Source of the DNA: Enterobacter phage vB_ExiM_F4M1E
DNA length: 64,000 bases
Direction: 5' to 3' (one strand)
Sequence record: OL744216.1
In this document: piece by piece, positions 35,402 through 63,270 of the stretch
Layout of the letters: each line of letters starts with the position of its first letter
How positions within the stretch are numbered: position 1 is the first letter of the stretch
Translations under genes and position numbers: made by a program
Notes under the pieces: model-generated
What the model was told of the DNA's origin: nothing
The model's input: only the letters and a program-made list of their open reading frames with translations
Databases searched by the model: none

Positions 35402-35769
35402 TTTCTCCGAGGTTTTAAAACACCTGATTTTGAAAGAGGAATCTCATCGGCATCTCTGCCTTTCTCTCCATCTTTCCCATCCTTTCCGGCCTTTCCTGGT
35501 TTGCCCTCCGGGCCTGCCGGACCCGCTGGACCTGGCACATAAACATACTGCGGTTCAGTCAACGCTGCAATAAACAGTAGTATTGCCCAAGCAACACCAT
35601 TGACCCACAATGCAGGCCACATCGAAAAGAATACAGACAGGGCCAAGATCAATGTCGCATTGCGATGATCTCTTCGCCGAGCGATCAAGTACGGGGCCAT
35701 CCAGAACAACACGAACAGCCATGCAGAACCTGTGAACAAAGACCACATCAGATCAACAAACTCTGTCAT
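35398..35769 (-). CDS. membrane protein with C-terminal collagen-like (Gly-X-Y) segment
   Basis: 123 aa: three hydrophobic helices followed by PGPAGPAGPEGKPGKAGKDGKDGEKG (9 GXY triplets) and a short basic tail. Confidence 0.6.
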   Translation of the reverse strand: MTEFVDLMWSLFTGSAWLFVLFWMAPYLIARRRDHRNATLILALSVFFSMWPALWVNGVAWAILLFIAALTEPQYVYVPGPAGPAGPEGKPGKAGKDGKDGEKGRDADEIPLSKSGVLKPRRN

Positions 35770-36684: not shown

Positions 36685-37353
36685 TTAGTCGCAGGACGAG
36701 GAACTTGAACCACTGTCATACGAACTGGAGTCGTAAGAACTGCTGGAAGAAGAACCATAGCTCGAACTGCTGTAGCTGTCGTCAGAAGACGAGTAGCTTG
36801 AACTGTACGTTGAGGTCGCAGCGGAACTGCGGCACTCTTCCACCGGGGCAGGCTGCGCCGCCGGGGTGTCATCACTCAGGATCGCTCCGGCTGCATAGCC
36901 ATACAGCGCTGCGTTTACCGGATCAATACCGTGAGAAACGACATGACCACCTGTGCTGTGCGGAGTATCGTCCAGTCGGCGGGCAGGTGCCGGAGAACCG
37001 GACACTTTAGCCTGCTTAATGAACTGACGCTTCGCTTTTGGCGGCAAGGTTTTACCCTTCGCATAGCTTGGAAGTTCCACACCTTTAAGCTGCTCGTTCA
37101 GAGGCTTAGGTGGGGTCTTTTCCACCGGGACTTTTACCCCAGCGGCCTTCAGGTCTGCTTCAACCTGCGCCACGCTCTCCTGAGTAGACGGCTCAACGGT
37201 CACATTAACAACGGGACGTTCATAGCTGCGAGACTCCACAGTCACAACACGTTTAGTCTGTGATTGCTTGGCGATGTATTCGTCAACCTTCACGTCATCA
37301 ATCTTCGCCGGGGCGAACAGGGCTTTTACCCACGCTACAAACCTCTTGATCAT
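36685..37353 (-). CDS. hypothetical protein with Ser/Tyr-rich low-complexity C-terminal tail
   Basis: 222 aa; the last ~50 residues are STYSSSYSSSDDSYSSSSYGSSSSSSYDSSSYDSGSSSSSCD. Confidence 0.5.
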   Translation of the reverse strand: MIKRFVAWVKALFAPAKIDDVKVDEYIAKQSQTKRVVTVESRSYERPVVNVTVEPSTQESVAQVEADLKAAGVKVPVEKTPPKPLNEQLKGVELPSYAKGKTLPPKAKRQFIKQAKVSGSPAPARRLDDTPHSTGGHVVSHGIDPVNAALYGYAAGAILSDDTPAAQPAPVEECRSSAATSTYSSSYSSSDDSYSSSSYGSSSSSSYDSSSYDSGSSSSSCD

Positions 37354-37565
37354 ACTTCCTCTCCTTCTTCGTTGAGAACAGTCAGCAAATTGGTGCCCAG
37401 CAGGCCAGCGGAGATCAGATCATCAATACCTGCCTGCCCGGTGAGTCCATCTTCAAAACAGTCAGCCAGATTTTCGTTCTCCAGCATCCAGTTATTAGCG
37501 GCCTTTTCGGAGGTGAACAACAAGCCTTCATGACCGATGTCCCACTCACAGAAAATCTCAAACAT
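37350..37565 (-). CDS. small highly acidic protein
   Basis: 71 aa, Asp/Glu-rich (ENENLADCFEDG...NEEGEEV); ATGA coupling with its neighbours. Confidence 0.45.
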   Translation of the reverse strand: MFEIFCEWDIGHEGLLFTSEKAANNWMLENENLADCFEDGLTGQAGIDDLISAGLLGTNLLTVLNEEGEEV

Positions 37566-37894
37566 TATCCTCTCCTCTTATTGTAAACTTCCCTCGCCCA
37601 TTTCACAGCCGCTTCAAGTACGTCTCCGTGACATGGATGGGGATGACAGAAGCATACCAGATCTTTACCTTCCAAAGCAAGAAGATCTTCAATGGTAATT
37701 TTCCCGGACCTGATCTGTTCCCACAACCAAACACGGTATCGTTCAATTGTGGCCCCTCTCGGCTCTTCTTTCGACAGCTTAAAGGGGTTGGCGAACTTAG
37801 ACTGCTTTAGCCCGAAGTGGGGCATGGCGCGGCCTATGTACACAGCATTATCCGGGATTACTTTACTCAGGTGGTAAAAGTTAAGGACCGCCAT
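37565..37894 (-). CDS. DUF4326-like Cys/His-motif protein
   Basis: 109 aa; VCFCHPHPCHGDVL fits the C-x-C-x4-C-H-G-D-x-L signature that I recall for DUF4326-family proteins; the assignment is tentative. Confidence 0.45.
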   Translation of the reverse strand: MAVLNFYHLSKVIPDNAVYIGRAMPHFGLKQSKFANPFKLSKEEPRGATIERYRVWLWEQIRSGKITIEDLLALEGKDLVCFCHPHPCHGDVLEAAVKWAREVYNKRRG

Positions 37895-45765: not shown

Positions 45766-48402
45766 TCAGTGACAATCTCCCCAACTTGTCCCTGTCAGGT
45801 ATTCACCTGTGATGTGGACTGGTGACTTCATCATCTTGGCTGCCTGCTCTACGCATTTGACCACCATCTGCCCCACCGGGCAATGAATAATCGTGTACAC
45901 GCCGTTCTCGTCCGGATCACACTTGAACTTACCTTCTTTCACACAGTGACCATCCAGAACCAGACCTTTCGCCAGGCACTGTTCAACAAAGGCTTTTGCA
46001 GTCGCCTCGTCGTTGAACTTCCATTCCTTCTTGAACTTGTGCGGCACCTCAAGCTGGTATTCATCGTGGTAGTAGATGATACGGCGGACGCCTTCATCAT
46101 ACCAGCCTCGTTTAACCAACTGCCAGTGCAACAGGATACCAACCAAGTCGAACAGTGCGGCACCGCCGTTCTGCTGGTATGCGTTCAGCAGGGAGTGTTT
46201 GGATCGGGTGTAGATCTTACGACCATCAAGACCGTAGATAAACCGTTTCCCAGTCAACTCCCAGAACTTCTCAAGGGCTTCTTTACGACCTTTCAAGCCG
46301 ATGTTGCTATCCCAGAATGCGTCGATTACCGCCTGTGCTTTGTCGAGGGAAATACCCAACATAGAGGCGATCTTCGCCGCTTGGGCACCGTACATGATGC
46401 CATATGTTACACCCTTACCTTCGCCACGGGAAACCTTCTTGCCCGCCGCCTTGGTATACGCCTCGGCGTTTCGGCTGTGGGCGTCACCAGACTCCATGAT
46501 GCGGAGATAAGCGCCACCATCGAACTCATAAGCACCCCATGCCGCGATCATACCTTCGAGGTTTGACCCGTCAATACCCACCTGATACTTCCCTTCCGAC
46601 GCCTTGAACAGCGCTCGCATTTCCTTGCCCAGCAGAACCTTCTCGTCTGGTTTAGGAACGTTAGCCACGATCGTGTGCTTACGGCGTCCGGTGTTGGTAA
46701 TACCAGAATAACGCGCCGGGAGCTTCCCGTCAATACGCAGTCGTGGATGGTTCAACCACCCCGTGTCAACCTTGTCTTCCTTGAGTGGGTCAAGTACAGA
46801 ACGGCGGTTTCGCAGGGAGAGCCATTTCACGATCTGCTTCGCCATATGACCATCAACCTTCTCAAGGTTAGGGCACAGGCCGCTCATATCCTTCAGCTGA
46901 GGCGATGTTGGCAGACCACGGGCTTTACGGCGGAGGAGTTTATACATCTTCTCCTTATCCTGCCACGCCTTCAGGGTGATCCCGAGGTACTCCAAGATCA
47001 GATCCCGGTACTCAACCTGGTCCAACTGCTCGATGTACTCACGCACAAGGCCGTCAACCTCGTTGTCAGGACGCTGTTTCTTAAACTGGTCCTTGGTAAC
47101 ATCTTTGCTGCGCCACAGCGTAGGCTTCCATCCTGCATCACGGATCAGGAACTTCTTCACGTCGTCCTGGTTACCGATTCGCATCGGGATCATGATGTCC
47201 GGCATCGTCTGATTCTTCAGGTCCAACATTGCTCGTGCCATGTCCTCTGGTGAGAGAGGGATCAGGGTCGTTTGCTTGTTGTTCTGGTCCCGGATAAACT
47301 GTGGCATCGCTGCCTCATCCTCGACACCATGCTCATTGCAATACTTGATTGCTGCCGCCGTCAGGCTACCGTCTGCCTTGAAAGACTTCGCCGGAGGGCC
47401 TTTGAAATCAAGGGCCTCCCAGTTGATGTTATATCCCAACTTCTCAAGCCACTTCCACCCGGTCCCGGACAGAGATCCGTCACCCTTGAAAGGTTTAGAT
47501 GGGAACGTGGGCTGTGCCGACTTAGCCATCTCTTTCTTGGGCAGGTGTGGTTCAACATCGCCCTCGATGTCCCGCATCATTGTGTCGATACGGTCACGAA
47601 GTTTCAGCGCCGCCTCTTCGTCGAAGGTTACGCCTTGGATCTCTTGCTCGATCATCAGGTAGTCGGTGAGCATCCCCCGGCGCAGGCCATTCTTCCAGTT
47701 GATCAGTTTGTACTTTTTGGCGTCCTTATCCTTATCTTCATCCTTGTACATGAAGCGTTTGTCATCTACCAGCTTGCCGTCGCAGGCGATCTCCTCCATG
47801 AGGGCCGTCCACACCATTTCGTTGATGATGACGTCTTCGATGATACGATCGCAATACTTCCACAGCGGCAATCCGCGCCAGTCCTCGATTGCCACCTTCT
47901 GGTTGGCAACACGCATACCCCAGGCTTCCAAACCGTGAGGGCCGACAGGTTTCATCTTCCCGGTCACCGGGTTCTTCACCATCTCAGGACAGCCACGGGG
48001 CAGCGGGCGGTCCGGGTAAAGAGTTCGAGACATTGATAAAGTGTCGAACAGGTTAACCTGTTTGCCGTTCAGGGTGCCCATGCACTTGGGATCACCGAAC
48101 ATATCATACTGAGTCCCCAGCATCTTTTTGAACAGACGCAGGTCGTAGCCGAACAGGTTGTGGATCGCAATTGAGCGAGGCTCAGTCTTGAACCAATCGT
48201 TCAACTCCTCAAAGGTGCGGATCTTGAAGTTCTTCCCCTTCGACTCGATGAATTTGATGGCCTGATCGTACCCTTCCCGATTGGGATCGAGGAAGATATT
48301 CCAGTTATCGACCTTATACTCCTTGAACAGGATCACGTGAAGCTGGTCTACCTCATCGAGCAGACCGTTGGCTTCAGCATCTCCTACAAACAACCCTTTC
48401 AT
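45766..48402 (-). CDS. DNA polymerase, family A (Pol I / T7-like) with 3'-5' exonuclease motifs
   Basis: Exo I VGDAEANGL; pol motif B K..YGIMYGAQAAKIA; motif C YYHDEYQLE; start at the in-frame ATG (MKGLF) after AAAGGAGAGAG, giving 878 aa (the track's GTG start at 48429 gives 887 aa). Confidence 0.9.
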   Translation of the reverse strand: MKGLFVGDAEANGLLDEVDQLHVILFKEYKVDNWNIFLDPNREGYDQAIKFIESKGKNFKIRTFEELNDWFKTEPRSIAIHNLFGYDLRLFKKMLGTQYDMFGDPKCMGTLNGKQVNLFDTLSMSRTLYPDRPLPRGCPEMVKNPVTGKMKPVGPHGLEAWGMRVANQKVAIEDWRGLPLWKYCDRIIEDVIINEMVWTALMEEIACDGKLVDDKRFMYKDEDKDKDAKKYKLINWKNGLRRGMLTDYLMIEQEIQGVTFDEEAALKLRDRIDTMMRDIEGDVEPHLPKKEMAKSAQPTFPSKPFKGDGSLSGTGWKWLEKLGYNINWEALDFKGPPAKSFKADGSLTAAAIKYCNEHGVEDEAAMPQFIRDQNNKQTTLIPLSPEDMARAMLDLKNQTMPDIMIPMRIGNQDDVKKFLIRDAGWKPTLWRSKDVTKDQFKKQRPDNEVDGLVREYIEQLDQVEYRDLILEYLGITLKAWQDKEKMYKLLRRKARGLPTSPQLKDMSGLCPNLEKVDGHMAKQIVKWLSLRNRRSVLDPLKEDKVDTGWLNHPRLRIDGKLPARYSGITNTGRRKHTIVANVPKPDEKVLLGKEMRALFKASEGKYQVGIDGSNLEGMIAAWGAYEFDGGAYLRIMESGDAHSRNAEAYTKAAGKKVSRGEGKGVTYGIMYGAQAAKIASMLGISLDKAQAVIDAFWDSNIGLKGRKEALEKFWELTGKRFIYGLDGRKIYTRSKHSLLNAYQQNGGAALFDLVGILLHWQLVKRGWYDEGVRRIIYYHDEYQLEVPHKFKKEWKFNDEATAKAFVEQCLAKGLVLDGHCVKEGKFKCDPDENGVYTIIHCPVGQMVVKCVEQAAKMMKSPVHITGEYLTGTSWGDCH

Positions 48403-48464
48403 ACTCTCTCCTTTTTGGCATACCTCCACTCAGGATATCCCAATGCCTCGTAAAGATCAACCTA

Positions 48465-50141: not shown

Positions 50142-50795
50142 TTAGTCAAGAACAAATGGTGCCGTCGGCACCGAGAAATTACCGTCGTAACGGGCTACTT
50201 TGCTGATACGGAATTGGTCAAGCCCACCAAACATCGTTTGTTCGCCGAACCCGATCCTTGCGAAACGGCTTACGTCACTCCACCCTCCAGAAACAAAGGA
50301 TGTGGTGGTTGGTGCCACTTTACCGTTAATATATAACTTCGTGACCCCTCCTTTGCTCACAATGGCGATATGTGCCCAGTTGGAAAGAGGCCAGTAGTTG
50401 GTACTAAAGCTCAAATAATTCTTCTGGTCCTGAAGATAAACCACGCTTTGGTAAACCTTGAGGCAACTCTGCGTACCTGTTCCAAAGTACATCCACCAAG
50501 AAGAGGCAACTGAAGAGTTTCTTGACCAAAATTCAATAGTGAACTCGTCCTCTGGTTTGAAGACGAGATCTGTTTTCTCTGTCGCCACCATCTCAAAATA
50601 GCTGGTAGCGGTAGTACAGTCAAAGTATTTGTTGTTGAATTTTCCGTAACTTCCGGTGCCTACTGTGGCTACCTTGGAAAATTGCCGGGTAGGCTTGGCA
50701 ACATCAATACCACCCTTGTCTGCTTGCAGGAGAAGGAGAGTCTTATCTCCCTTCACGCCGCCGCTTGCACCAGCCGCCAAAAGAATTTCCTGCAC
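50142..50795 (-). CDS. LamG/ConA-like jelly-roll domain protein (paralog B)
   Basis: 217 aa; WAHIAIVSKGGVTKLYINGK and FGGLDQFRISKVARYD resemble the LamG consensus (H.A.V.DG..LY.DG...FxGxLDEVRI). Confidence 0.45.
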   Translation of the reverse strand: MQEILLAAGASGGVKGDKTLLLLQADKGGIDVAKPTRQFSKVATVGTGSYGKFNNKYFDCTTATSYFEMVATEKTDLVFKPEDEFTIEFWSRNSSVASSWWMYFGTGTQSCLKVYQSVVYLQDQKNYLSFSTNYWPLSNWAHIAIVSKGGVTKLYINGKVAPTTTSFVSGGWSDVSRFARIGFGEQTMFGGLDQFRISKVARYDGNFSVPTAPFVLD

Positions 50796-50805
50796 TTTTT
50801 ACTCC

Positions 50806-51477
50806 TTAATGATTGAAGTGGTAAACAGCCCGGGCAAACCCTTCGGGGGTCAGCGATCGTAACTGTTTGGTCCTCTCCGACTTACCGCCTAAAAACTTCC
50901 ACCCCCAGAAGCAGCCTATATGAGGTACAGGCTTCTTGTCGGGCATCACAAAGCCATTCCCTACCCAGAGGCAAGTTTTCTTTGTGTAGGCGTTCCTGTA
51001 CGGCATTTTTGGGTGATACGAGCCTTCAATCTGGCTCAGGTATCCGCCATACTCGTAAGGGTCGAAGTAATGGTCCGGCTTACGCCAGAGCGTACTCATT
51101 TTCCCAACCGGATTTTCAACCATCCACGGGCAGTCGAAAACGTTGGCAACACGCTCTACCATTTTAGCATTATCTATCGACTCCATCAACTCTGATTTTG
51201 TCCGGGTGTGTTTGGCCCCGGCAACTGACAGGTTGGTGCAGCTTGGGAATGCGAAGATGATGTCCGGCTTAGGGATGCCCGCACCCATCGCAAAGGCCAA
51301 GAAATCTTCGTCGATCCAGCAATTAACATACTGGATGTTTGGATGCTCCCGGCGCAGTTCATACTGCCCATGATCGGCGGTGTCTGCATTGAAGCAGAAC
51401 ACCTTCCAACCATTGAGGGCGTACTCGTACCCCATGAAGCCGGAGCCATCAAAGAGGCTCCAGACGACTTTAGACAT
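50806..51477 (-). CDS. DNA (cytosine-5)-methyltransferase-like protein, short and divergent
   Basis: Motif I SLFDGSG; motif IV-like PDIIFAFPSCTNLSVAG (PSC instead of PC); motif VI-like MVENPVG (ENP instead of ENV); only ~223 aa with no obvious target-recognition domain. Confidence 0.5.
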   Translation of the reverse strand: MSKVVWSLFDGSGFMGYEYALNGWKVFCFNADTADHGQYELRREHPNIQYVNCWIDEDFLAFAMGAGIPKPDIIFAFPSCTNLSVAGAKHTRTKSELMESIDNAKMVERVANVFDCPWMVENPVGKMSTLWRKPDHYFDPYEYGGYLSQIEGSYHPKMPYRNAYTKKTCLWVGNGFVMPDKKPVPHIGCFWGWKFLGGKSERTKQLRSLTPEGFARAVYHFNH

Positions 51478-51478
51478 A

Positions 51479-51733
51479 TTATTCCTCACAAACAGGGGCG
51501 ATGATGATACACGGGGTGTATACGGATCGGCCCTGACTATCTGTCAGGTTTACCTGACTCTGCCCATGAAGGATGTCTTCTTCATCCGCTGAGAAAGTAC
51601 CTGCACCATACTGAATCAGAAAACGAAGTTGAAGGATCAGGTAGATCGAATCCATACCGGAAGAGTCCAGCAGATCTTCCATATCGAAATCCACCATGAT
51701 TCGCTCTTTGTCCAAACGTACCCAATATTTCAT
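51479..51733 (-). CDS. hypothetical protein
   Basis: Start at MKYWVR with ATGA overlap. Confidence 0.4.
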   Translation of the reverse strand: MKYWVRLDKERIMVDFDMEDLLDSSGMDSIYLILQLRFLIQYGAGTFSADEEDILHGQSQVNLTDSQGRSVYTPCIIIAPVCEE

Positions 51734-54568: not shown

Positions 54569-56641
54569 TCAGAACGGACACTCATCATCCATGTCATCTT
54601 CAGGCATGTCCGGAACATCCGGGATGTCTGGTATTGCAGAAGTTACTGGCTGAATAGGTTCAGGGGTTTCCTCCTTTACCTCTTCAACGGGTTCGTCCAG
54701 GTTCAGGTCTTGCTGCTCAACCTGCTGTTCCTTGGCCTCTTCCTGTGCTGCCAAGAACTGCTCGTCCGCCGGAGGGATGTCATCATCCGTCAGGTCAGAT
54801 CCGGTCTTATCTTGGTTCTCCGGAGAGAGCGGTTGTGCTGCACTTCCCGTCGGCTCCTGATAAGAAGCGTTGCTCGGATCATGTTCCGGGTGGACCGCAT
54901 ACCACTCACGGAGAGTTTCGTATGGACTGTCCAAGAACCCTTCAGGCGGCTCCAGATAATCTCCCGTATCAATGTCATAAAACACCGGGAACTTACCAGC
55001 ACGACCGTGTTTACGGTCATCCAGGATAACGAACCACGACGTGTTACGCTGCTTCATCGGCAACTCTGGGTCTTTGTTACGCTCGATGCCCCACATGTAG
55101 TAGGTGTTACGCATCATTGCACGGGACCCGGCGAACTGTGCCGACTGCACCTGACCGCCGAACTCGTGCGGCTTACCCGCTTCCGGTTTGTTCAGGTGAC
55201 AGAAGCAATAATACGTGAAGCCCAGTTCTTTTGCAAGTTTGGAGATCTCATCCGAGAAACGCTCCAGTTCCTGGTTTGCCTCAGATGCCGACATACCCTG
55301 TACCAGACGGGTGATCGGGTCGATGAAGATGTCCTCACAACCTTCCACGATGACGGCATGTCGGATTGCACCTTTCAGTTCATCCCATACTGCACGACCG
55401 TAGTTGTTGTAGTAGATGACAGAATCACCAACTTCATCCGTTGCTGCGATCAGTTCTTCCTGTTTGAAGTAACCGCGCTGGCCCTCGAACACCTCGTTGC
55501 CCCAGATGTCACGATAGGTTCCATCTTCCTGCGGGATCATCACCTTCTCTGCGTTAACAAAGTCCTTGTGATAACGCTTCCCGGCAATCTTCTTACAAGT
55601 GATCTCGTTCTCTTCCTCGAACTTGAACACTGCGGCCTTGGCCTTCTCCACCCCGGTGATGTATTCGACCATCTGGTTGAGGAGTTCACTCTTACCCATC
55701 TTAACGCCTGCGCCGATGAAGTAACCTTCACCTTTACGACGGCCCAGTGTCAGGCGGGTCATAGTAGGCCACGGGAATTTCTTCCCGAGCTTAGGGATCT
55801 CGTGGGCCTTATCTCGGAACTGGCTGTACGTAGAGAACCCGTCCGGCACATATTCCTTCGGCTTCATCGCGGCCCAGAAAAGCTGCTGCGCCAGGCCCTT
55901 GTTGTACATGTCACAAGGGTCCATGTCTTCAGGGATATCGACCACTTTCATCTGCGGGATAACGGAATACACCGCTGCCACAGCGTCTTTACCCTTCATG
56001 ATCCCCTTGGCTTTCTCAGTTTCGTTCGCCCGGTCGGCGTCGAAAGCCACAATGATCTCTTCGAACTTACTCAGGAGCTTATAGTTGTTCTTCTGAGACA
56101 GGTTCTGTACTGCGTTGGATGTGCCGTTGGAGATTGACACAACCGTGAAGTTAGGCTTACGGGAATTGCCGTCCTTCGATTTGTAGTTCTCGCGGAGAAC
56201 TTGCCACAGAATCGCTGCATCGTACTCACCTTCGGTGATGAAGATCATACGCTTGGACGACTTGTTGGCACCCTCCAGGCCAAACAGATCACAGGCTACC
56301 GATTGGAAGCCGATGGTGCTGAAATGGCCCTTCTGCTGCTTAGGGATGGTCAGATCGCGCTTCTTAAAGCCAACGATCTTTCCTTCCAAAGTATATGGAA
56401 AATAATGCGCTTCCGGCGTCATACCGTCCTTAGCAGACAGTTTTGTGCGAATACCGAAGCGTTCAGCCGTCTTCTCATCAATCCCGCGCTCCGGGATCGC
56501 CTTGAAGGGATACGTCTTTACATCTTCAACTGTCTCTTCAACTCGCTGCACTCCGCCTCCAAAACCCCGTGTGGTTGACGCCTTCGGGTTGGTGTACCCC
56601 GTCTTGTAGCCACCGAACAATCCTTCACCAAATGTGCTCAC
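54569..56641 (-). CDS. bifunctional DNA primase-helicase (T7 gp4-like: TOPRIM + DnaB-type helicase)
   Basis: 690 aa; TOPRIM acidic motif ITEGEYDA and VAFDAD; Walker A GAGVKMGKS; acidic C-terminal tail ending DDMDDECPF; GTG start coupled to the upstream small ORF. Confidence 0.85.
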   Translation of the reverse strand: MSTFGEGLFGGYKTGYTNPKASTTRGFGGGVQRVEETVEDVKTYPFKAIPERGIDEKTAERFGIRTKLSAKDGMTPEAHYFPYTLEGKIVGFKKRDLTIPKQQKGHFSTIGFQSVACDLFGLEGANKSSKRMIFITEGEYDAAILWQVLRENYKSKDGNSRKPNFTVVSISNGTSNAVQNLSQKNNYKLLSKFEEIIVAFDADRANETEKAKGIMKGKDAVAAVYSVIPQMKVVDIPEDMDPCDMYNKGLAQQLFWAAMKPKEYVPDGFSTYSQFRDKAHEIPKLGKKFPWPTMTRLTLGRRKGEGYFIGAGVKMGKSELLNQMVEYITGVEKAKAAVFKFEEENEITCKKIAGKRYHKDFVNAEKVMIPQEDGTYRDIWGNEVFEGQRGYFKQEELIAATDEVGDSVIYYNNYGRAVWDELKGAIRHAVIVEGCEDIFIDPITRLVQGMSASEANQELERFSDEISKLAKELGFTYYCFCHLNKPEAGKPHEFGGQVQSAQFAGSRAMMRNTYYMWGIERNKDPELPMKQRNTSWFVILDDRKHGRAGKFPVFYDIDTGDYLEPPEGFLDSPYETLREWYAVHPEHDPSNASYQEPTGSAAQPLSPENQDKTGSDLTDDDIPPADEQFLAAQEEAKEQQVEQQDLNLDEPVEEVKEETPEPIQPVTSAIPDIPDVPDMPEDDMDDECPF

Positions 56642-58551: not shown

Positions 58552-58747
58552 CAGTTTCGAAACAGAAGAAGCCCTCGCATACCGTGCCGTCTTGGCGGGT
58601 AAAGTTGACGATGACCTCATCGTCGTCGGCGTCAATAGAGACTACGACGCCCTTATCCCCCGGATTAACCCCGTCGAGGCTGTAATCTTGCAGGTTTTCC
58701 GGATTGAAGATAACCTTTTCGCCTACCGCTACCAGTTTGTTGCTCAT
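58529..58747 (-). CDS. hypothetical protein
   Basis: 72 aa; ATGA overlap with the helicase stop. Confidence 0.4.
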   Translation of the reverse strand: MSNKLVAVGEKVIFNPENLQDYSLDGVNPGDKGVVVSIDADDDEVIVNFTRQDGTVCEGFFCFETDVEVCGD

Positions 58748-60105
58748 ACCTCACCTCCAAAAATTTCAGGGAACGTTTCATGATAGAACTTACGGACACC
58801 CTGGTCAACAATAATGTCCTTCACACGCAGGCGCTTCATCAGGCGAAGACCTTCAGTGCTCGTTGCTCGGGACAGCATAACATAGGCTTGGCCCGGCGTG
58901 AAGGTGCCGAAACCTAAATCAATGTTCACTTTGCCCAGCGTCAGGCCCTGTGCTTTGTGTCCGGTGATAGCATAGCCCAATTTGAACGGGAATTGCAAGT
59001 ATTTCCCGATCTCTTTGTCAACCAGAACGGTTTGCTTCTCCATCACCTTGACAGTCTGCTTGGTGCCGTCTTCCAGTTCGATCTCTTTTTCAACCTGAAC
59101 CATCTTTTCTTCCGGGACCTGTGTCACGTTGGTCCACTCGTACTTGCCGATATGGATCGGCTTGCCGTCAATGTCCACGATGACGAAGGTCTTGGCGATT
59201 TTCTTGATGATCCCTACCGTACCGTTAACGTAATCTGGCTCCTTTTTCTTCTGGTCATTGTCGTTCACAACGATCATGACCTTCAGACCTTCTTTCAGGT
59301 TCAGAACTTCGTTGACCGGGCGCTCCGGGAACTCACCTGAGATCTTGGCTTCGAAAACATGAGGCTCGGCCTTGATCTTCTCAAACTCGCGCTGATTGAT
59401 TTGCTCTGCCAGTTTGTTGGTGGTTGTCAGAGTGACAGCACCTGGCAACGCCGGGCCGAAGCACTTCTCGTTGAAGTAATCAACTGCCGCACCAACATTA
59501 TTACCCACACGAATGTTGTTCAGGTGTTCAGCAAACACCGGGTCGGTCTGTCGGTGGACCTTCGGCAGATACGCATTCGTGAAATTCAGTTCGTTCCAGA
59601 TATCGCAGCCGAACGGGATTTCATTACCATGCAATTCACGGAACATCGCCGTTTCTTCACGCTTCAGCACAGGCTTGATCTGGAAGCCGTCGCCAAACAT
59701 GATGACCTGAAGACCACCAAAAGGCTTATTTACCTTACGATGATAGCGCAGTTTCATGTCGATCTCACGCAGCTTGTCACTACGGGTCATAGAGATCTCG
59801 TCAAAGACGATAGCATCTAACGCATCTGACGCCATCAGCATCGCAGGCTTCTTAGACTTCGCTTTGTAGTCTTCCTTGGTTGTAACACCAAAGGTAAGGC
59901 CAAATGCCTTATGGGTGGTAATGCCGTTAATATTCAGCGCCGCAATCCCGGTTGGTGCAACAAACAGGAAGCTGTCGGCAAAGAACTCACGCAGAGTGGC
60001 GATCATCAAACTCTTGCCCGAACCACCCGGGCCTGTGATGAACACGTTTTCACCTGCCATGATGGCTCGCATTGCTTCTTCGTTACCAATTACTGTCTTA
60101 CCCAT
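58744..60105 (-). CDS. SF1B DNA helicase (Dda / Pif1 / RecD-like)
   Basis: 453 aa; Walker A GPGGSGKS at residue ~25; motif II-like region VFDEISM. Confidence 0.85.
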   Translation of the reverse strand: MGKTVIGNEEAMRAIMAGENVFITGPGGSGKSLMIATLREFFADSFLFVAPTGIAALNINGITTHKAFGLTFGVTTKEDYKAKSKKPAMLMASDALDAIVFDEISMTRSDKLREIDMKLRYHRKVNKPFGGLQVIMFGDGFQIKPVLKREETAMFRELHGNEIPFGCDIWNELNFTNAYLPKVHRQTDPVFAEHLNNIRVGNNVGAAVDYFNEKCFGPALPGAVTLTTTNKLAEQINQREFEKIKAEPHVFEAKISGEFPERPVNEVLNLKEGLKVMIVVNDNDQKKKEPDYVNGTVGIIKKIAKTFVIVDIDGKPIHIGKYEWTNVTQVPEEKMVQVEKEIELEDGTKQTVKVMEKQTVLVDKEIGKYLQFPFKLGYAITGHKAQGLTLGKVNIDLGFGTFTPGQAYVMLSRATSTEGLRLMKRLRVKDIIVDQGVRKFYHETFPEIFGGEV

Positions 60106-60290
60106 TACGCCTCTGCCTCAAATTTTGTGGTACTGATGATTTTGGCCTCACTGATTTCAATATTCGTGTGACCTTTCTTCGCCAAACGGCTGGCCTTCAG
60201 TGTTGCCGCCTGCGGATCGTCAACCTTGGCGCGAACGCTTTGACCATAGCCCGCATCGGATGATACCAGAAAAACAGACTTCTCTTCCAT
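60105..60290 (-). CDS. hypothetical protein
   Basis: 61 aa; TAATG coupling to the helicase. Confidence 0.4.
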   Translation of the reverse strand: MEEKSVFLVSSDAGYGQSVRAKVDDPQAATLKASRLAKKGHTNIEISEAKIISTTKFEAEA

Positions 60291-60299
60291 AAAACCCCC

Positions 60300-60497
60300 T
60301 TATTCGTTACCCACGGTATGGATAAATAGGTTTAAAACTATTGCCACGCCAGTTAACAGCCCGCCGAAGAACATGACCAGCGGAACCTCATTGGCAAAAG
60401 GAGAGGCCATGAGTTCAGGGAACATCTTTTCAACACCCCATTTTCCCAAGCCGATCCAAATCAAGGCATTTACCACCACTGCAATAAGAAATCTCAT
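60300..60497 (-). CDS. holin-like small membrane protein
   Basis: 65 aa with two TM helices; start overlaps the hydrolase stop (ATGA); RBS AAGGAG. Confidence 0.45.
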   Translation of the reverse strand: MRFLIAVVVNALIWIGLGKWGVEKMFPELMASPFANEVPLVMFFGGLLTGVAIVLNLFIHTVGNE

Positions 60498-61024
60498 GCT
60501 TTCATCTCCTTGGGTTTATAAAATACATGGTAGCCGATAGTGGCTGTCTTCGTAAAGAACTTTCTCCAGTATGGTTTGACCTTCTTCGTGTGGAAGTGAG
60601 TTGCGCCATGTGTTGGGTCCAGCTTGTTATACAATACATCATTGTTCCGGATCTTGTAAAGGAATTTCGCAATATCCTGTGCAACCATCCAAGACTCTTT
60701 ATCACGAACGGCGTACCCGCTACGGATCATCGTCCAAGAGAATTGAGAGGATTGATATACGACTTTCCTCACTGACTCCGGATAACCGTCATGTTTCAGC
60801 CTGTTCAGAGTAACAAATCCAACCGCCATCTGTCCACTGATATTTTCCCCACGCGACTCGAAATAAATATTGCAGGCCAAGGCATTGACCGACGAGTCAT
60901 TCTTTTTGCACACATGAACAACCGGGGCGAGCTTTTTCTTCGGTGTATTCTCTTTAGCTAAGGCGGATGCCGGGGCTAAAGAAAGTACGCTGGCTGCAAT
61001 GAGGGCAGCGGTGCTCTTTCTCAT
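60494..61024 (-). CDS. SleB/Hydrolase_2-family cell wall hydrolase with Sec signal peptide (endolysin candidate)
   Basis: Start at MRKSTAALIAASVLSLAPASALA (AxA cleavage site); ALACNIYFESRGE...GQMAVGFVTLNRL matches the SleB-type lytic domain. Confidence 0.7.
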   Translation of the reverse strand: MRKSTAALIAASVLSLAPASALAKENTPKKKLAPVVHVCKKNDSSVNALACNIYFESRGENISGQMAVGFVTLNRLKHDGYPESVRKVVYQSSQFSWTMIRSGYAVRDKESWMVAQDIAKFLYKIRNNDVLYNKLDPTHGATHFHTKKVKPYWRKFFTKTATIGYHVFYKPKEMKA

Positions 61025-61073
61025 ACAAACTCCTAAATAAGAAAGGCCCAGTTTATCACTGAGCCTTTGGAAG

Positions 61074-61454
61074 TCAAGCCTTTTTGGAGGCTTGAGCGAG
61101 GACGCCCTTCTTAACATCTTCCCAAAGGGAATTGAGGAAAGGGTCGTTCTTGATCACATCCGGATACCAAGGCCCGTAGATACGGTATACGGAATCCACA
61201 GTGATCGCATACAACTGCCCGCCATTAACTGCGAGGCCAGTTACGTAGCCCGTTCGGACTTGGGTGCCATCTTTGCCAGTCTTCCGGCGCTTCGCCTCAT
61301 TGAACTCGATATAGCCCGTCAATGTAACGATCTTCTCGGGGACTTGCAGGTCGGGCAGCTTTTCATGATTGATTAGCTGATTACCGGACTTGCTGCCCTC
61401 CAGGCAAAGATTACCCCCGTACTTCTTGCCGTACTTCCTGGCAAACTCAGCCAT
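61074..61454 (-). CDS. hypothetical protein
   Basis: Start at MAEFARK, 1 nt after the macrodomain stop. Confidence 0.4.
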   Translation of the reverse strand: MAEFARKYGKKYGGNLCLEGSKSGNQLINHEKLPDLQVPEKIVTLTGYIEFNEAKRRKTGKDGTQVRTGYVTGLAVNGGQLYAITVDSVYRIYGPWYPDVIKNDPFLNSLWEDVKKGVLAQASKKA

Positions 61455-61455
61455 T

Positions 61456-61977
61456 TTAGTCGTGGACAATTTCACTCTCCTTCAGAACATAGATGGTCAC
61501 ATCGAAGTCTCGCAGGCGACCCTCGATCATCCGGGAGATGATACCCCAATCACCCCCGGCAAGTCCAGCCCCGATTTTAGGCAGACCGATCTTCAGATCG
61601 TGGGTTGGCATGTCAAGAATACGACACTTGGCATGAAGAGACACCGCCATCGCTGACAGCGCCGAACGCAGTGCCCAGTAATCGAGGTCCATCTTACCCT
61701 CTTTGCGACCCGTGAAGGTGTACTGGCTGTACAGGTTGTACACCAGCAGACCATTCTCGGAGAACGCGCAGGATAATGTCCCCAACTTTGCCTTATCTCC
61801 CCGTACTGTCATCTGGTCCGCCGTCCATGCCTCTGGGAACGCCTCGGCTATCTTCGGGGCAATACCAGACTTCATTGTATTCATGCAGTTGCAGCCGTGG
61901 GCGATGACATTCACCTCCCCGGCCTTTGCAGCCGTGATCAGGTTGCCTACCTTGTACCGTATTTTACCACATGGCAT
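61456..61977 (-). CDS. TARG1/DarG-type macrodomain protein (ADP-ribosyl hydrolase candidate)
   Basis: VNVIAHGCNCMNTMKSGIAPKIAEAF and DLKIGLPKIGAGLAGGDWGIISRMIE parallel the TARG1 motifs AHCISEDCRMGAGIA and MPRIGCGLDRLQWENV; start at MPCGK directly after the upstream stop (TAAGATG). Confidence 0.7.
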   Translation of the reverse strand: MPCGKIRYKVGNLITAAKAGEVNVIAHGCNCMNTMKSGIAPKIAEAFPEAWTADQMTVRGDKAKLGTLSCAFSENGLLVYNLYSQYTFTGRKEGKMDLDYWALRSALSAMAVSLHAKCRILDMPTHDLKIGLPKIGAGLAGGDWGIISRMIEGRLRDFDVTIYVLKESEIVHD

Positions 61978-61978
61978 C

Positions 61979-62191
61979 TTAAAGTTCACCTCGCTTCGCT
62001 CTCTGGCAGATCTGGAGAACATCGTAGCACGACTGCTTCACAATCCAAGGCTCCCCACGATACAGGGTGATGAGGGTCCCTTTACGATCTGTCCCCTCGA
62101 TCTGTGTCACTTGTGGGTGAAACTCCCGGATATTTGCAACATCGAGGCAGATCGATTCCTCAGAAGCCAGTTGATTGAGATATACAAACAT
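61979..62191 (-). CDS. hypothetical protein
   Basis: 70 aa. Confidence 0.4.
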   Translation of the reverse strand: MFVYLNQLASEESICLDVANIREFHPQVTQIEGTDRKGTLITLYRGEPWIVKQSCYDVLQICQRAKRGEL

Positions 62192-62199
62192 GAACCCTC

Positions 62200-62466
62200 C
62201 TACAGGTATTGGCTTTCAAGCCACTGCGCCGCCTCGTCAGGTGACTTACAGTCTCGCTTTTCGTTGATGGTAAACCAGCCGTCGATGCAATTACACGCCC
62301 AGTCTTCCTCGTCCTCTTCCTCCGCACGTTCTTGAACCTCAACATGCCAAGTGCCGTCCCAGCTCTGGTCGATAATTACCTGAACCTCATTGTGGAGTTC
62401 TTTTTCCACACGGTCAGCAACCTCATTGAACTGGTCCATAATATCAATTTCATTTTCCACTTTCAA
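62200..62466 (-). CDS. acidic protein
   Basis: 88 aa; EEEDEEDWACNCIDGW. Confidence 0.4.
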   Translation of the reverse strand: MKVENEIDIMDQFNEVADRVEKELHNEVQVIIDQSWDGTWHVEVQERAEEEDEEDWACNCIDGWFTINEKRDCKSPDEAAQWLESQYL

Positions 62467-62827
62467 TCTCCTTCAGTTTGAGAGACAGAGCCTCAACCTC
62501 ACGCTTGAGGTCTTCAGCCTTCAACACTGTTCGGGACCACTCTTGGGCTTTATCCATGAGTTGCCTACCAATAGCGATCGCCTCTGTAGCGCACACAATT
62601 TCGCCTTTACTATAGCGAACCTTGACAGTCCTGTTGTATGGCACAGCACACCAACCCACCGCACCAAGGTTAGTGTAGTGGCTGAATTTGTACGGCCCCC
62701 AAACTTTACCCGTCTTTTGGTTGAAGACCCAAAAGTCATCACCCCATTTCAGTTGTGGGTTCCAACTTTTATCGATCTCGTCCTGATATCGGTAGTCACT
62801 CGGTTTGTATTCCGGTCGTCTGCTCAT
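62450..62827 (-). CDS. hypothetical protein
   Basis: 125 aa. Confidence 0.4.
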   Translation of the reverse strand: MSRRPEYKPSDYRYQDEIDKSWNPQLKWGDDFWVFNQKTGKVWGPYKFSHYTNLGAVGWCAVPYNRTVKVRYSKGEIVCATEAIAIGRQLMDKAQEWSRTVLKAEDLKREVEALSLKLKEIESGK

Positions 62828-63270
62828 TCTTCAGACCCCATCATGTTGAGTTTACGGCCCGCCCGCATCTCTAAAAATGCTTTCAGGTCCCCAAACTTCC
62901 CTGTCGCCACCGCTCCCGCTGGCGCTCGGTTGTAGTCCCAGGCTTCCTTCGCCTCCTCGATATCACCAACACGGGCTTCGATCTGCTTTCTCAGAGAATA
63001 CGCAGAATAGCCAGAACGGATGACTCTGGGCGGAACATAGCGAATAATACCTGCATCAATTGCACGTTGGGACATTGCGACCTTGTTCCTGTGCATCTTG
63101 ATACATTTCACTACGTACTCCTCGAACTCTTTCTTGAACGCCGGATGGATCAGTGCCTCCGGGGCATAGAAATGCACCACACGATATTGACCATCCTCAC
63201 CTTTGAGGTACTGAATCTCTGGACGACCAAATTGCACTGTCACATCAAAATCTTCAATCGTAAATTTCAT
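62824..63270 (-). CDS. hypothetical protein
   Basis: 148 aa. Confidence 0.4.
   Translation of the reverse strand: MKFTIEDFDVTVQFGRPEIQYLKGEDGQYRVVHFYAPEALIHPAFKKEFEEYVVKCIKMHRNKVAMSQRAIDAGIIRYVPPRVIRSGYSAYSLRKQIEARVGDIEEAKEAWDYNRAPAGAVATGKFGDLKAFLEMRAGRKLNMMGSEE

What the first reader, a model, noticed from the sequence alone, without database searches (positions are those of the whole stretch)
61456..61977. Phage-encoded TARG1/DarG-type macrodomain in the early operon: candidate counter-defence against DNA ADP-ribosylation
The two signature stretches (VIAHGCNC..MKSGIA and KIGAGLAGGDW) are those of the TARG1/OARD1 macrodomain clade, not of the YmdB/MacroD clade. This is the same clade as the macrodomain of the DarG antitoxin, which removes ADP-ribose from thymidine in ssDNA and neutralises the DarT abortive-infection toxin. 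A free-standing copy expressed from a phage early operon, next to the replication genes, is what one would expect from an anti-DarTG (or anti-ADP-ribosyltransferase) factor. I know of no standard annotation of this as a phage anti-defence class.
Basis: partly seen in the sequence, partly recalled or inferred. Interest (0 to 1): 0.8.

Follow-up and report, generated by a model that had tools for sequence, protein, structure and literature searches.

The report
Phage AdfM-type macrodomain, likely anti-DarT2
This is a real, well-conserved phage gene for a small ADP-ribose-removing enzyme related to phage T4 Tk.4/AdfM, which lets T4 escape the bacterial DarTG2 defence, so it is a new member of a recently described counter-defence class, not a new class.

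Summary
The ORF at 61456-61977 (minus strand, 173 aa) and both motifs are there as described. The window is a Certrevirus (Vequintavirinae), 98.6% identical to Klebsiella phage KaOmega, where the gene is labelled "putative hydrolase" or "putative phosphatase".

An AlphaFold2 model (pLDDT 93.5) matches TARG1, BT1257, DarG, Poa1p and SCO6735 ahead of MacroD-type domains. DarG is the only PADLOC and NCBIfam hit. The clade assignment is correct.

The gene is not a DarG:
- It has no DarT-binding domain and no darT neighbour.
- The catalytic Lys (TARG1 K84, DarG K80) is an invariant Gln (Q85), as in SCO6735, BT1257 and T4 Tk.4.
- Eighty bacterial relatives are about 150 aa, stand-alone, keep the Gln, and are not DarT-linked.

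The class is already published. T4 Tk.4 (30% identical, E 4e-21, same PHROG 335) was named AdfM after its knockout sensitised T4 to DarTG2 (bioRxiv, Nov 2025). PhiKZ gp104 AdfM followed (Cell Rep 2026). SCO6735, also Gln-type, removes ADP-ribose from thymidine in DNA.

The most likely function is enzymatic removal of DarT2-type ADP-ribose from phage ssDNA. This is inferred, not shown. Early expression is not demonstrated. Homologues occur in 2968 of 50,697 phage records. Verdict: new member of a known kind, modest interest.

The parts
61456..61977 (-). CDS of the stand-alone ALC1-like (TARG1/DarG/SCO6735-class) macrodomain protein. It is 173 aa, 18.9 kDa, pI 8.6, and an orthologue-level relative of T4 Tk.4/AdfM.
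   Evidence: ORF. PHROG 335 at 2.1e-61. AF2 pLDDT 93.5. Foldseek PDB hits. BLASTP against T4 Tk.4 gives E 4e-21. dN/dS 0.058.
61858..61908 (-). Residues 24-40, VIAHGCNCMNTMKSGIA: the first ADP-ribose-binding loop. H27 corresponds to SCO6735 H24 and TARG1 H32. N30 corresponds to DarG N22, PhiKZ AdfM N23 and SCO6735 N27.
   Evidence: Alignment A2. H27 and N30 are invariant in 56/56 phage-side homologues and 80/80 bacterial relatives. Residue roles come from PMC9411070 and PMC13309987.
61723..61725 (-). Codon of Gln85, in the column of the catalytic Lys of TARG1 (K84), DarG (K80) and PhiKZ AdfM (K78). SCO6735 Q85, BT1257 and T4 Tk.4 also have Gln here.
   Evidence: Alignment A2. Q85 is found in 56/56 and 80/80 sequences. 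SCO6735 Q85A and Q85E are inactive (PMC9411070).
61696..61722 (-). Residues 86-94, YTFTGRKEG: a longer 'mobile loop' with basic residues, including R91 (50/56 conserved). It is as long as the loop in SCO6735 and BT1257, and longer than in DarG, TARG1 and T4 Tk.4.
   Evidence: Alignment A2 and column counts. In SCO6735 this loop is proposed to clamp DNA (PMC9411070). That role is inferred here.
61546..61581 (-). Residues 133-144, PKIGAGLAGGDW: the Gly-rich diphosphate-binding loop. A140 occupies the position of TARG1 D125.
   Evidence: P133, G142 and W144 are invariant; G136 and G138 are found in 54/56.
61989..61992 (-). GAGG Shine-Dalgarno-like motif, 11 nt upstream of the ATG at 61977. It overlaps the alternative GTG start at 61989 used in the KaOmega annotation.
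   Evidence: Sequence read; KaOmega annotation.
61979..62191 (-). Upstream 70-aa ORF (PHROG 12235, unknown function). Its TAA stop lies 1 nt before the macro ATG, suggesting translational coupling. This is context only; it is not shown to be functionally linked.
61074..61454 (-). Downstream ORF (PHROG 12555, unknown function). The likely start is the ATG at 61454, 1 nt after the macro TAA stop. This is context only.
   Evidence: The PHROG alignment begins at residue 8 of the longest ORF. No Pfam hit.
61042..61068 (-). Terminator-like hairpin (11-bp stem plus a T-rich tail) just after the downstream ORF. It may mark the end of the transcription unit that holds the macro gene.
   Evidence: Consensus scan. 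The overall count of such sites is not above the shuffle expectation.

Best explanation
The gene encodes a free-standing, catalytically competent ADP-ribosyl hydrolase of the ALC1-like macrodomain class. It belongs to the Gln-type subfamily typified by Streptomyces SCO6735, Bacteroides BT1257 and phage T4 Tk.4 (AdfM).

Proposed mechanism. During infection the enzyme removes the ADP-ribose that a host DarT2-type toxin attaches to thymidine in single-stranded phage DNA. That keeps phage replication going in DarTG2-carrying hosts.

By analogy with SCO6735, catalysis would not use the Lys of TARG1 or DarG. Gln85, together with the H27-G28-C29-N30 loop, would position the distal ribose and a water molecule. 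The basic loop after Gln85 and the Gly-rich loop would hold the DNA and the diphosphate.

Shown here: the ORF, fold, class, motif conservation, purifying selection, homology to T4 AdfM, and the lack of a DarT partner.

Inferred: enzymatic activity, DNA-thymidine substrate, DarT2 as the target, and early expression.
For: Fold and class:
- The AF2 model has pLDDT 93.5.
- Foldseek's top PDB hits are TARG1, BT1257, DarG, Poa1p and SCO6735.
- phmmer against PDB gives BT1257 6e-8, SCO6735 2e-6 and DarG 5e-4.
- DarG is the only PADLOC hit (1.2e-7) and the only NCBIfam hit (2.7e-6).

Homology to an experimentally tested anti-DarTG2 factor:
- T4 Tk.4 matches by BLASTP at 30% identity, E 4e-21.
- The family profile matches Tk.4 at 99.9% probability, E 3e-31.
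- Both fall in PHROG 335.
- tk.4 was the single hit of a transposon screen on DarTG2, and a clean knockout sensitised T4 (10.1101/2025.11.20.689424).

Biochemistry of the same Gln-type active site:
- SCO6735 removes thymidine-linked ADP-ribose more efficiently than DarG or TARG1.
- It rescues cells from DarT, and Q85A/E mutants are dead (PMC9411070).
- The family profile matches SCO6735 at 98.8%, E 1e-16.

Active-site conservation and selection:
- H27, N30, Q85, P133, G142 and W144 are invariant in 56 phage-side and 80 bacterial homologues.
- dN/dS is 0.058.

A second, independent phage macrodomain, PhiKZ AdfM, does the same job (PMC13309987).
Against: - No experiment exists on this protein or on any Vequintavirinae orthologue.
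- Identity to T4 Tk.4 is only 30%.
- Macrodomains of this class also act on proteins (SCO6735, TARG1) and on small molecules (Poa1p). Poa1p is structurally as close as DarG.
- A survey of viral NAD/ADPr systems argued that phage macrodomains mainly target soluble ADP-ribose derivatives (PMC9503650).
- The same genome carries a DUF4326 gene that the survey links to such chemistry.
- The bacterial relatives are not DarT-linked, so the family did not obviously arise as a DarT antidote.
- I did not check whether this phage's hosts carry DarTG2.
- Timing of expression is unknown.
Confidence: 0.6

Rival explanations
1. It processes soluble ADP-ribose derivatives, not DNA adducts. Candidates are ADP-ribose-1''-phosphate (Poa1p-like 'phosphatase', the historical annotation), O-acetyl-ADP-ribose, or ADP-ribose-based immune signals or toxins made by TIR, SIR2 or RES defence systems. 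It might act together with the DUF4326 protein of the same phage.
For: - Poa1p structures are among the top fold matches, at 1.9e-9, and phmmer gives 2.5e-6.
- PHROG 335, GenBank and RefSeq all call it 'phosphatase'.
- The viral NAD/ADPr survey proposes that phage Macro, NADAR and DUF4326 proteins mainly counter diffusible ADPr derivatives (PMC9503650).
- A DUF4326 protein is encoded at 37565-37894.
- One of 80 bacterial relatives sits next to a ThsB-like TIR gene.
Against: - The only genetic phenotype known for a member of this family, T4 Tk.4, is DarTG2 sensitivity.
- Gln-type SCO6735 is a DNA and protein hydrolase.
- The DUF4326 gene lies 24 kb away, not adjacent.
- The TIR neighbour is a single case.
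Confidence: 0.15
2. It is a broad ADP-ribose eraser whose main targets are proteins or RNA. It would reverse ADP-ribosylation of phage or host proteins by host ARTs, or trim modifications laid down by a phage-encoded ART, or remove ADP-ribose from RNA or phosphorylated nucleic-acid ends.
For: - TARG1 is the top structural match.
- SCO6735 hydrolyses protein-ADPr as well as DNA-ADPr (PMC9411070).
- RNA-targeting ART defences exist, such as CmdTAC (PMC11618068).
- The family is very widespread in phages, with 2968 records, which suggests a general need.
Against: - The TARG1 Lys/Asp dyad used for protein Glu/Asp-ADPr hydrolysis is absent: Q85 and A140.
- Pfam found no ART among the 70 minus-strand-block ORFs scanned at E <= 1e-4 to 1e-2. 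The structural block and small ORFs were not scanned.
- T4 carrying Tk.4 is still restricted by CmdTAC.
Confidence: 0.15
3. It neutralises DarT mainly by binding it (interaction-inhibition or decoy), not by catalysis.
For: Catalytically dead SCO6735 Q85A still inhibits DarT in vitro, more strongly than DarG or TARG1 mutants do (PMC9411070).
Against: - Strict invariance of the active-site residues H27, N30, Q85 and the Gly loop across phage and bacterial homologues argues for catalysis.
- The DarT-binding C-terminal domain of DarG is absent. The NCBIfam match covers only profile positions 1-146 of 338.
Confidence: 0.05

Closest known systems
T4 Tk.4 = AdfM (anti-DarT factor Macrodomain; bioRxiv 10.1101/2025.11.20.689424)
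   Same: Both are phage-encoded, stand-alone proteins of about 155-173 aa in PHROG 335. They share the IAHGCNC, NLY[ST]Q and P[KR]IGAG..G.W motifs, including Gln in place of the catalytic Lys. BLASTP gives 30% identity, E 4e-21, and hhalign gives 99.9%.
   Different: Identity is only 30%. T4 Tk.4 lacks the longer basic loop after the Gln and the insertion before the Gly-rich loop. The phage lineages differ (Straboviridae versus Vequintavirinae). The DarTG2 phenotype has been shown for T4 only.
Streptomyces coelicolor SCO6735 (PDB 5E3B) and Bacteroides BT1257 (PDB 2AFC/2FG1)
   Same: They are the best sequence matches among solved structures, at 2e-6 and 6e-8. All are stand-alone and share Gln at the Lys position, the H-x-C-N motif, a long basic mobile loop and the PRIGxGLAGGxW loop. 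SCO6735 cleaves thymidine-ADPr on DNA and rescues cells from DarT.
   Different: These are cellular proteins at 28-29% identity. SCO6735 Val25 is Gly28 here, and its Lys34 has no exact counterpart: K36 is one column off and only 28/56 conserved.
DarG antitoxin of DarTG2 (PDB 5M31/5M3E/5M3I; NCBIfam NF048014)
   Same: Same macrodomain class and fold. It is the only defence-library hit. Asn30 corresponds to DarG N22.
   Different: Differences:
- There is no FPTK catalytic Lys; Gln85 takes its place.
- There is no C-terminal DarT-binding domain.
- There is no adjacent darT.
- The NCBIfam score is 26.9 bits against a cut-off of 250.
PhiKZ gp104 AdfM (Cell Rep 2026, PMC13309987)
   Same: It is a phage stand-alone macrodomain in PHROG 335 with demonstrated removal of DarT2 ADP-ribose from DNA. 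The functional analogy is the closest.
   Different: It is a true DarG-type sequence: FPTK Lys78, and E 9e-25 to Mtb DarG. Similarity to the window protein is barely detectable, with BLASTP E 0.027 and hhalign at 45%. It is imported into a phage nucleus, which Certreviruses are not known to form.
Human TARG1/OARD1 (PDB 4J5Q-S)
   Same: It is the top Foldseek match (3e-11, TM about 0.8 on the target) and shares the PRIGCGL-type loop and the His of the first loop.
   Different: The K84/D125 catalytic dyad is replaced by Q85/A140. Sequence E-value is only 0.75.

Membership tests
Macrodomain superfamily (Pfam PF01661 Macro) | Sequence match to the Pfam Macro model above the gathering score | tested here: not met
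   17.7 bits against a gathering score of 22, E 0.0035, covering residues 27-145. The family is too divergent for this model; only some homologues carry PF01661.
Macrodomain superfamily (Pfam PF01661 Macro) | Three-layer alpha/beta/alpha macro fold | tested here: met
   AF2 pLDDT 93.5, pTM 0.89. 175 PDB matches at E <= 1e-3. All of the top 45, and all but one of the 50 listed, are macrodomains; rank 46 is a designed serine hydrolase.
ALC1-like / TARG1-like macrodomain class | Closest structural and sequence neighbours are TARG1, DarG, SCO6735, BT1257 and Poa1p, not MacroD/YmdB or viral Mac1 types | tested here: met
   Foldseek ranks 1-18 are all of this class; alphavirus and MacroD-type domains follow. 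phmmer against PDB lists only this class below E 0.01. There was no YmdB/MacroD NCBIfam hit.
ALC1-like / TARG1-like macrodomain class | Gly-rich diphosphate loop P-x-[IL]-G-x-G-(L/N)-x-G-G/L-x-W | tested here: met
   PKIGAGLAGGDW at residues 133-144. P133, G142 and W144 are invariant.
TARG1 (OARD1) | Catalytic Lys84/Asp125 dyad | tested here: not met
   Q85 and A140 occupy those columns.
DarG antitoxin (DarTG2) | Catalytic Lys80 in the FPTK motif | tested here: not met
   NLYSQ replaces FPTK. Gln is invariant in the family.
DarG antitoxin (DarTG2) | C-terminal DarT-binding domain (full length about 340 aa) | tested here: not met
   The protein is 173 aa and single-domain. The NCBIfam NF048014 match covers profile positions 1-146 of 338, at 26.9 bits against a cut-off of 250. 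The PADLOC DarG match covers 2-143 of 329.
DarG antitoxin (DarTG2) | Encoded next to a darT toxin gene | tested here: not met
   The flanking ORFs have no Pfam hit and belong to unknown lineage-specific PHROGs. Pfam found no DarT in the 70 minus-strand ORFs scanned.
AdfM, T4 Tk.4 type | Homology to T4 Tk.4 over the full length with the same active-site motifs | tested here: met
   BLASTP E 4e-21 at 30% identity. hhalign 99.9%, E 3e-31. Same PHROG 335. Shared HGCNC, NLY[ST]Q and IGAG motifs.
AdfM, T4 Tk.4 type | Phage-encoded, stand-alone macrodomain | tested here: met
   The window is a Certrevirus genome. The ORF is 173 aa and single-domain.
AdfM, T4 Tk.4 type | Protects the phage against DarTG2 | not testable with these tools
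   This has been shown only for T4 and for PhiKZ gp104.
AdfM, PhiKZ gp104 type (DarG2-like) | DarG-like sequence with the Asn23/Lys78 active site | tested here: not met
   Asn is conserved (N30) but Lys is Gln. BLASTP E 0.027 and hhalign at 44.9%. PhiKZ gp104 itself hits Mtb DarG at 9e-25.
SCO6735/BT1257-type (Gln-type) ALC1-like hydrolases | Gln at the catalytic-Lys position, H-x-C-N first loop, extended basic mobile loop, stand-alone | tested here: met
   Alignment A2. hhalign to SCO6735 at 98.8%, E 1e-16. The best PDB sequence hits are BT1257 and SCO6735. Eighty bacterial relatives of about 150 aa carry the same invariant residues.
SCO6735/BT1257-type (Gln-type) ALC1-like hydrolases | Hydrolysis of thymidine-linked ADP-ribose on ssDNA | not testable with these tools
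   Shown biochemically for SCO6735 only (PMC9411070).
Poa1p-like ADP-ribose-1''-phosphate phosphatase | Fold similarity plus the Poa1p catalytic residues (the PDB mutants are H23, S30 and F152) | tested here: inconclusive
   Fold similarity is met, at 1.9e-9, and phmmer gives 2.5e-6. A His is present in the first loop (H27). I did not align the S30 and F152 equivalents.
MacroD / YmdB type | N-x6-GG-[VLI]-D and G-[VIA]-[YF]-G signature motifs and closest fold neighbours | tested here: not met
   The motifs are absent from the sequence. These structures rank below all ALC1-like ones. There was no YmdB-type NCBIfam hit.

The most novel reading that the evidence does not exclude
The Gln-type stand-alone macrodomains (this protein, T4 Tk.4, SCO6735, BT1257, and hundreds of about 150-aa bacterial genes never linked to DarT) may form a separate, ancient 'genome guardian' lineage with a Lys-independent, water- and backbone-mediated mechanism. 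In phages they would act as broad-spectrum erasers, not as a DarG-derived orphan antitoxin. They would remove ADP-ribose from DNA thymidine and also from proteins, RNA or soluble derivatives, possibly together with the DUF4326 enzyme. One gene would then disarm several ADP-ribosyltransferase-based defences.
Probability: 0.2. Interest if true: 0.5.

Novelty: new member of a known kind. Interest (0 to 1): 0.3.

Why it matters
The result gives a functional label, AdfM-type anti-DarT2 candidate, to a gene annotated only as "hydrolase" or "phosphatase". That label could extend to the roughly 6% of sequenced phages that carry a homologue, many of them Klebsiella, Enterobacter, Cronobacter and Pectobacterium phages of therapeutic or biocontrol interest.

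It also sharpens a point the AdfM papers do not make. There are two sequence types of phage AdfM:
- PhiKZ gp104 is a true DarG-type enzyme with the catalytic Lys.
- T4 Tk.4 and this protein have Gln instead, and group with SCO6735 and BT1257. The bacterial members of that group are not DarT-linked.

This matters for how the enzyme works, for what else it might erase, and for where phages acquired it. It is not a new class of counter-defence.

Tried and rejected
- **Pfam alone.** The Macro model scores below threshold, so Pfam could not settle the family. Structure and other libraries were needed.
- **PhiKZ AdfM subtype.** I tested whether the protein belongs with PhiKZ gp104. It does not: BLASTP E 0.027 and hhalign at 45%.
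- **DarG membership.** Rejected on three defining features.
- **Partner genes.** I scanned 70 minus-strand-block ORFs against Pfam for darT, ART, NADAR or Nudix. Only a DUF4326 protein turned up, 24 kb away. The CR8 RefSeq annotation names no NADAR. The plus-strand structural block, the small ORFs and the last 32 kb of the phage genome were not scanned.
- **Promoters and terminators.** The scan to support 'early operon' gave 11 promoter-like sites against 6.6 +/- 2.3 expected, which is not convincing. Expression timing stays unproven.
- **DarT linkage in bacteria.** Among 111 flanking ORFs of 80 loci there were 97 different Pfam families, mostly housekeeping. No DarT appeared among the families listed. 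Only the first 25 families of each table are shown, so at most a single DarT neighbour could have been missed.
- **Literature searches that were empty or noisy.** 'Phage-encoded macrodomain' returned 0 papers. 'AdfM' was swamped by journal DOIs. One paper reading failed on a term that was too short.
- **Neighbouring ORFs.** PHROG lookups returned only families of unknown function.
Full report
**1. Observation**

The minus strand carries an ORF at 61456..62022. VIAHGCNCMNTMKSGIA is residues 24-40 and KIGAGLAGGDW is residues 134-144.

The ATG at 61977 is the most likely start. The upstream 70-aa ORF ends with TAA one base before it, and a GAGG lies 11 nt upstream. The KaOmega annotators chose the GTG at 61989. 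The downstream ORF starts one base after the macro stop codon, at the ATG at 61454, and its PHROG alignment begins at that Met. The gene therefore sits in a tightly packed, probably translationally coupled string of ORFs.

**2. Where the window comes from**

Region 60000-63000 is 98.6% identical to Klebsiella phage vB_KaeM_KaOmega (Vequintavirinae, Certrevirus). It is 80-86% identical to Cronobacter phages CR3, CR8, CR9 and PBES02 and to Pectobacterium phages phiTE, CB7 and others.

The gene is annotated "putative hydrolase" (KaOmega gp97) or "putative phosphatase" (CR8 gp092). All 21 close relatives keep it at more than 60% protein identity. Against the CR8 orthologue dN/dS is 0.058, although dS of 1.2 is near saturation.

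**3. What the protein is**

- Pfam's Macro model scores below threshold, at 17.7 bits against 22.
- PHROG 335 ('phosphatase') matches at 2.1e-61.
- The only hit in PADLOC and in NCBIfam is the macrodomain part of DarG, at 1.2e-7 and 2.7e-6.
- An AlphaFold2 model built on 56 homologues is confident, with pLDDT 93.5 and pTM 0.89.
- Its best Foldseek matches among solved structures are TARG1 (3e-11), BT1257, Thermus and M. tuberculosis DarG (7.5e-10, 2.3e-9), yeast Poa1p and SCO6735. Alphavirus, coronavirus and MacroD-type macrodomains come after them.
- phmmer against PDB sequences gives the same set: BT1257 6e-8, SCO6735 2e-6, Poa1p 2.5e-6, DarG 5e-4, TARG1 0.75.

**4.

I aligned the window protein with T4 Tk.4, BT1257, SCO6735, TARG1, two DarG macrodomains and PhiKZ gp104. 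The DarG, BT1257 and SCO6735 sequences were rebuilt from the HMMER alignments.

| Position | Window protein | Same residue in | Different in |
|---|---|---|---|
| Catalytic Lys column | Gln85 | T4 Tk.4, BT1257, SCO6735 (Gln) | TARG1 K84, DarG K80, PhiKZ K78 |
| TARG1 Asp125 column | Ala140 | – | TARG1 D125 |
| DarG N22 column | Asn30 | DarG N22, PhiKZ N23, SCO6735 N27 | – |
| SCO6735 H24 column | His27 | SCO6735 H24, TARG1 H32 | – |

Gln85, His27, Asn30, Pro133, Gly142 and Trp144 are invariant in 56 of 56 phage-side homologues.

The absent Lys does not argue against activity. For SCO6735 the literature shows the following (PMC9411070):
- It removes thymidine-linked ADP-ribose from DNA faster than DarG or TARG1.
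- It rescues cells from DarT.
- It loses all activity when Gln85 is changed to Ala or Glu.
- A water- and backbone-mediated mechanism was proposed.

The window protein also shares SCO6735's longer, basic loop after the Gln (R91, 50/56 conserved). T4 Tk.4, DarG and TARG1 lack that extension.

**5. Relation to known phage counter-defence proteins**

Two reports have already named this class AdfM (anti-DarT factor macro).
- In T4, tk.4 was the single significant hit of a transposon screen on a DarTG2 host, and a clean knockout made T4 sensitive (bioRxiv 10.1101/2025.11.20.689424, Nov 2025).
- In chimalliviruses, PhiKZ gp104 removes DarT2 ADP-ribose from DNA and is needed on DarTG2 hosts (Cell Rep 2026, PMC13309987).

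I fetched both proteins.
- The window protein is clearly homologous to T4 Tk.4. BLASTP gives 30% identity, E 4e-21. The family profile gives 99.9% probability, E 3e-31. The motifs are the same, including the Gln.
- It is barely similar to PhiKZ gp104 (E 0.027; hhalign 45%). PhiKZ gp104 is a true DarG-type sequence with the FPTK lysine and E 9e-25 to Mtb DarG.
- Profile comparisons rank the relatives Tk.4 > SCO6735 (1e-16) > Thermus DarG (4.5e-10) > PhiKZ AdfM.

The name AdfM thus covers two sequence types, and this gene belongs to the T4 Gln type.

**6. It is not a DarG**

- It has no C-terminal DarT-binding domain. The NCBIfam match covers profile positions 1-146 of 338, at 26.9 bits against a cut-off of 250.
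- It has no catalytic Lys.
- It has no darT neighbour. The flanking ORFs have no Pfam hit and fall in unknown PHROGs.

**7. Relatives outside phages**

A scan of one genome per prokaryotic species found 338 relatives. The best 80 (39-49% identity) come from many phyla, are mostly about 150 aa, and all keep H27, N30, N81, Y83, Q85, P133, G138, G142 and W144.

Their 111 nearest flanking ORFs fall into 97 different Pfam families, mostly housekeeping. No DarT appears among the families listed by Pfam or PADLOC. One neighbour is a ThsB-like TIR protein and one is an ADP-ribosylglycohydrolase. Only the first 25 families of each table are shown, so at most a single DarT neighbour could have been missed.

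The Gln-type subfamily is therefore a stand-alone lineage like SCO6735 and BT1257. It is not visibly a domesticated DarG.

**8. Distribution in phages**

tblastn finds a homologue in 2968 of 50,697 phage records. These include T4-like phages (gene tk.4), Vequintavirinae, Pakpunavirus, Felixounavirus-like, Vi1-like and jumbo phages. A published survey found Macro domains in 41% of myoviruses (PMC9503650). A 2023 Klebsiella phage paper already listed such a gene under 'TA system' from an HHpred-type hit to DarG (PMC10100988).

**9. Genomic context and the 'early operon' claim**

The gene lies in a long minus-strand block from about 32.8 kb to beyond 64 kb. Within that block are:
- a family A DNA polymerase (45766-48429) and a DnaB-like helicase (54569-56641), assigned by ORF size and the related-phage annotations;
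- a PIF1-like helicase (58744-60105) and a SleB-type cell-wall hydrolase (60494-61117).

In CR8 this block starts at a divergent junction about 7 kb upstream of the macro gene.

The promoter and terminator scan is not above background. It does show a terminator-like hairpin at 61042-61068, right after the ORF downstream of the macro gene. Early expression is plausible but not shown.

**10. Most likely mechanism and alternatives**

Best explanation (confidence about 0.6): an AdfM-type enzyme that strips DarT2-type ADP-ribose from thymidine in single-stranded phage DNA, using a SCO6735-like Gln-dependent active site.

Rivals:
- Processing of soluble ADP-ribose derivatives. Support comes from the similarity to Poa1p, the survey's argument, and a DUF4326 gene at 37565-37894.
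- Erasing protein or RNA ADP-ribosylation.
- Non-catalytic sequestration of DarT.

None is excluded by computation. The T4 genetics and the SCO6735 biochemistry favour the DNA explanation.

**11. Verdict**

The clade assignment and the functional idea are right in substance. However, the class is already described, the presumed catalytic Lys is a Gln, and the link to DarG is one of class, not descent. This is a new member of a known kind, of modest interest.

Noticed in passing
window 37565-37894 (-): A 109-aa protein matches Pfam DUF4326 (E 5.8e-22). A published survey proposes that this domain processes phosphate-bearing ADP-ribose breakdown products and notes that it is often fused to Macro, NADAR or SLOG domains in viruses. 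The phage may therefore carry a second ADP-ribose-related enzyme, 24 kb from the macro gene.
   Followed up: partly
window 61042-61068 (-) and 60494-61117 (-): A terminator-like hairpin (11-bp stem, T-rich tail) lies between the ORF downstream of the macro gene and the SleB-type cell-wall hydrolase. The hydrolase's real start is probably the internal Met (MRKSTAALIAASVLSLAPASALA..., signal-peptide-like) near 61024, as in the shorter CR8 annotation, not the 207-aa ORF.
   Followed up: partly
window 61975-61981 and 61452-61458 (-): Stop and start codons of three consecutive genes are separated by a single base (TAAGATG and TAAAATG). This suggests translational coupling of the macro gene with two small genes of unknown function (PHROGs 12235 and 12555).
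   Followed up: partly
window 36685-37353 (-): A 222-aa ORF ends in a long Ser/Tyr/Asp-rich low-complexity tail (…SSTYSSSYSSSDDSYSSSSYGSSSSSSYDSSSYDSGSSSSSCD). No family was assigned.
   Followed up: no
window 35398-35769 (-): A 123-aa predicted membrane protein has a short collagen-like G-x-y stretch (GPAGPAGPEGKPGKAGKDGKDGEKG). It is probably the source of the Pfam Collagen hit in the batch scan.
   Followed up: no
window 50806-51489 (-) and 50142-50795 (-): A 227-aa ORF has DNA-cytosine-methyltransferase-like motifs (LFDGSG…, PSC…) but no Pfam hit at 1e-3. Next to it, inside the replication-gene block, is a ConA-like lectin/glucanase (Laminin_G_3, 2.8e-10) protein.
   Followed up: no
loci L007-L086 (bacterial relatives): One of 80 bacterial Gln-type macrodomain genes has a ThsB-like TIR neighbour (PADLOC 5e-40). 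Another has an ADP-ribosylglycohydrolase neighbour, and another a NAPRTase neighbour. Five loci have a Uma2-family neighbour and five a CbiJ neighbour. I did not trace which loci these are.
   Followed up: no
L006 48062-48655 (-) (CR8 gp211, outside the window): The related phage CR8 annotates a 'DprA-like DNA recombination-mediator protein' of about 197 aa. This may be a SLOG-type domain of the NAD/ADP-ribose network. No NADAR is named in the first 117 kb of the CR8 annotation that I read, although other Vequintavirinae (Bas60-62) are reported to encode an anti-DarT1 NADAR.
   Followed up: no
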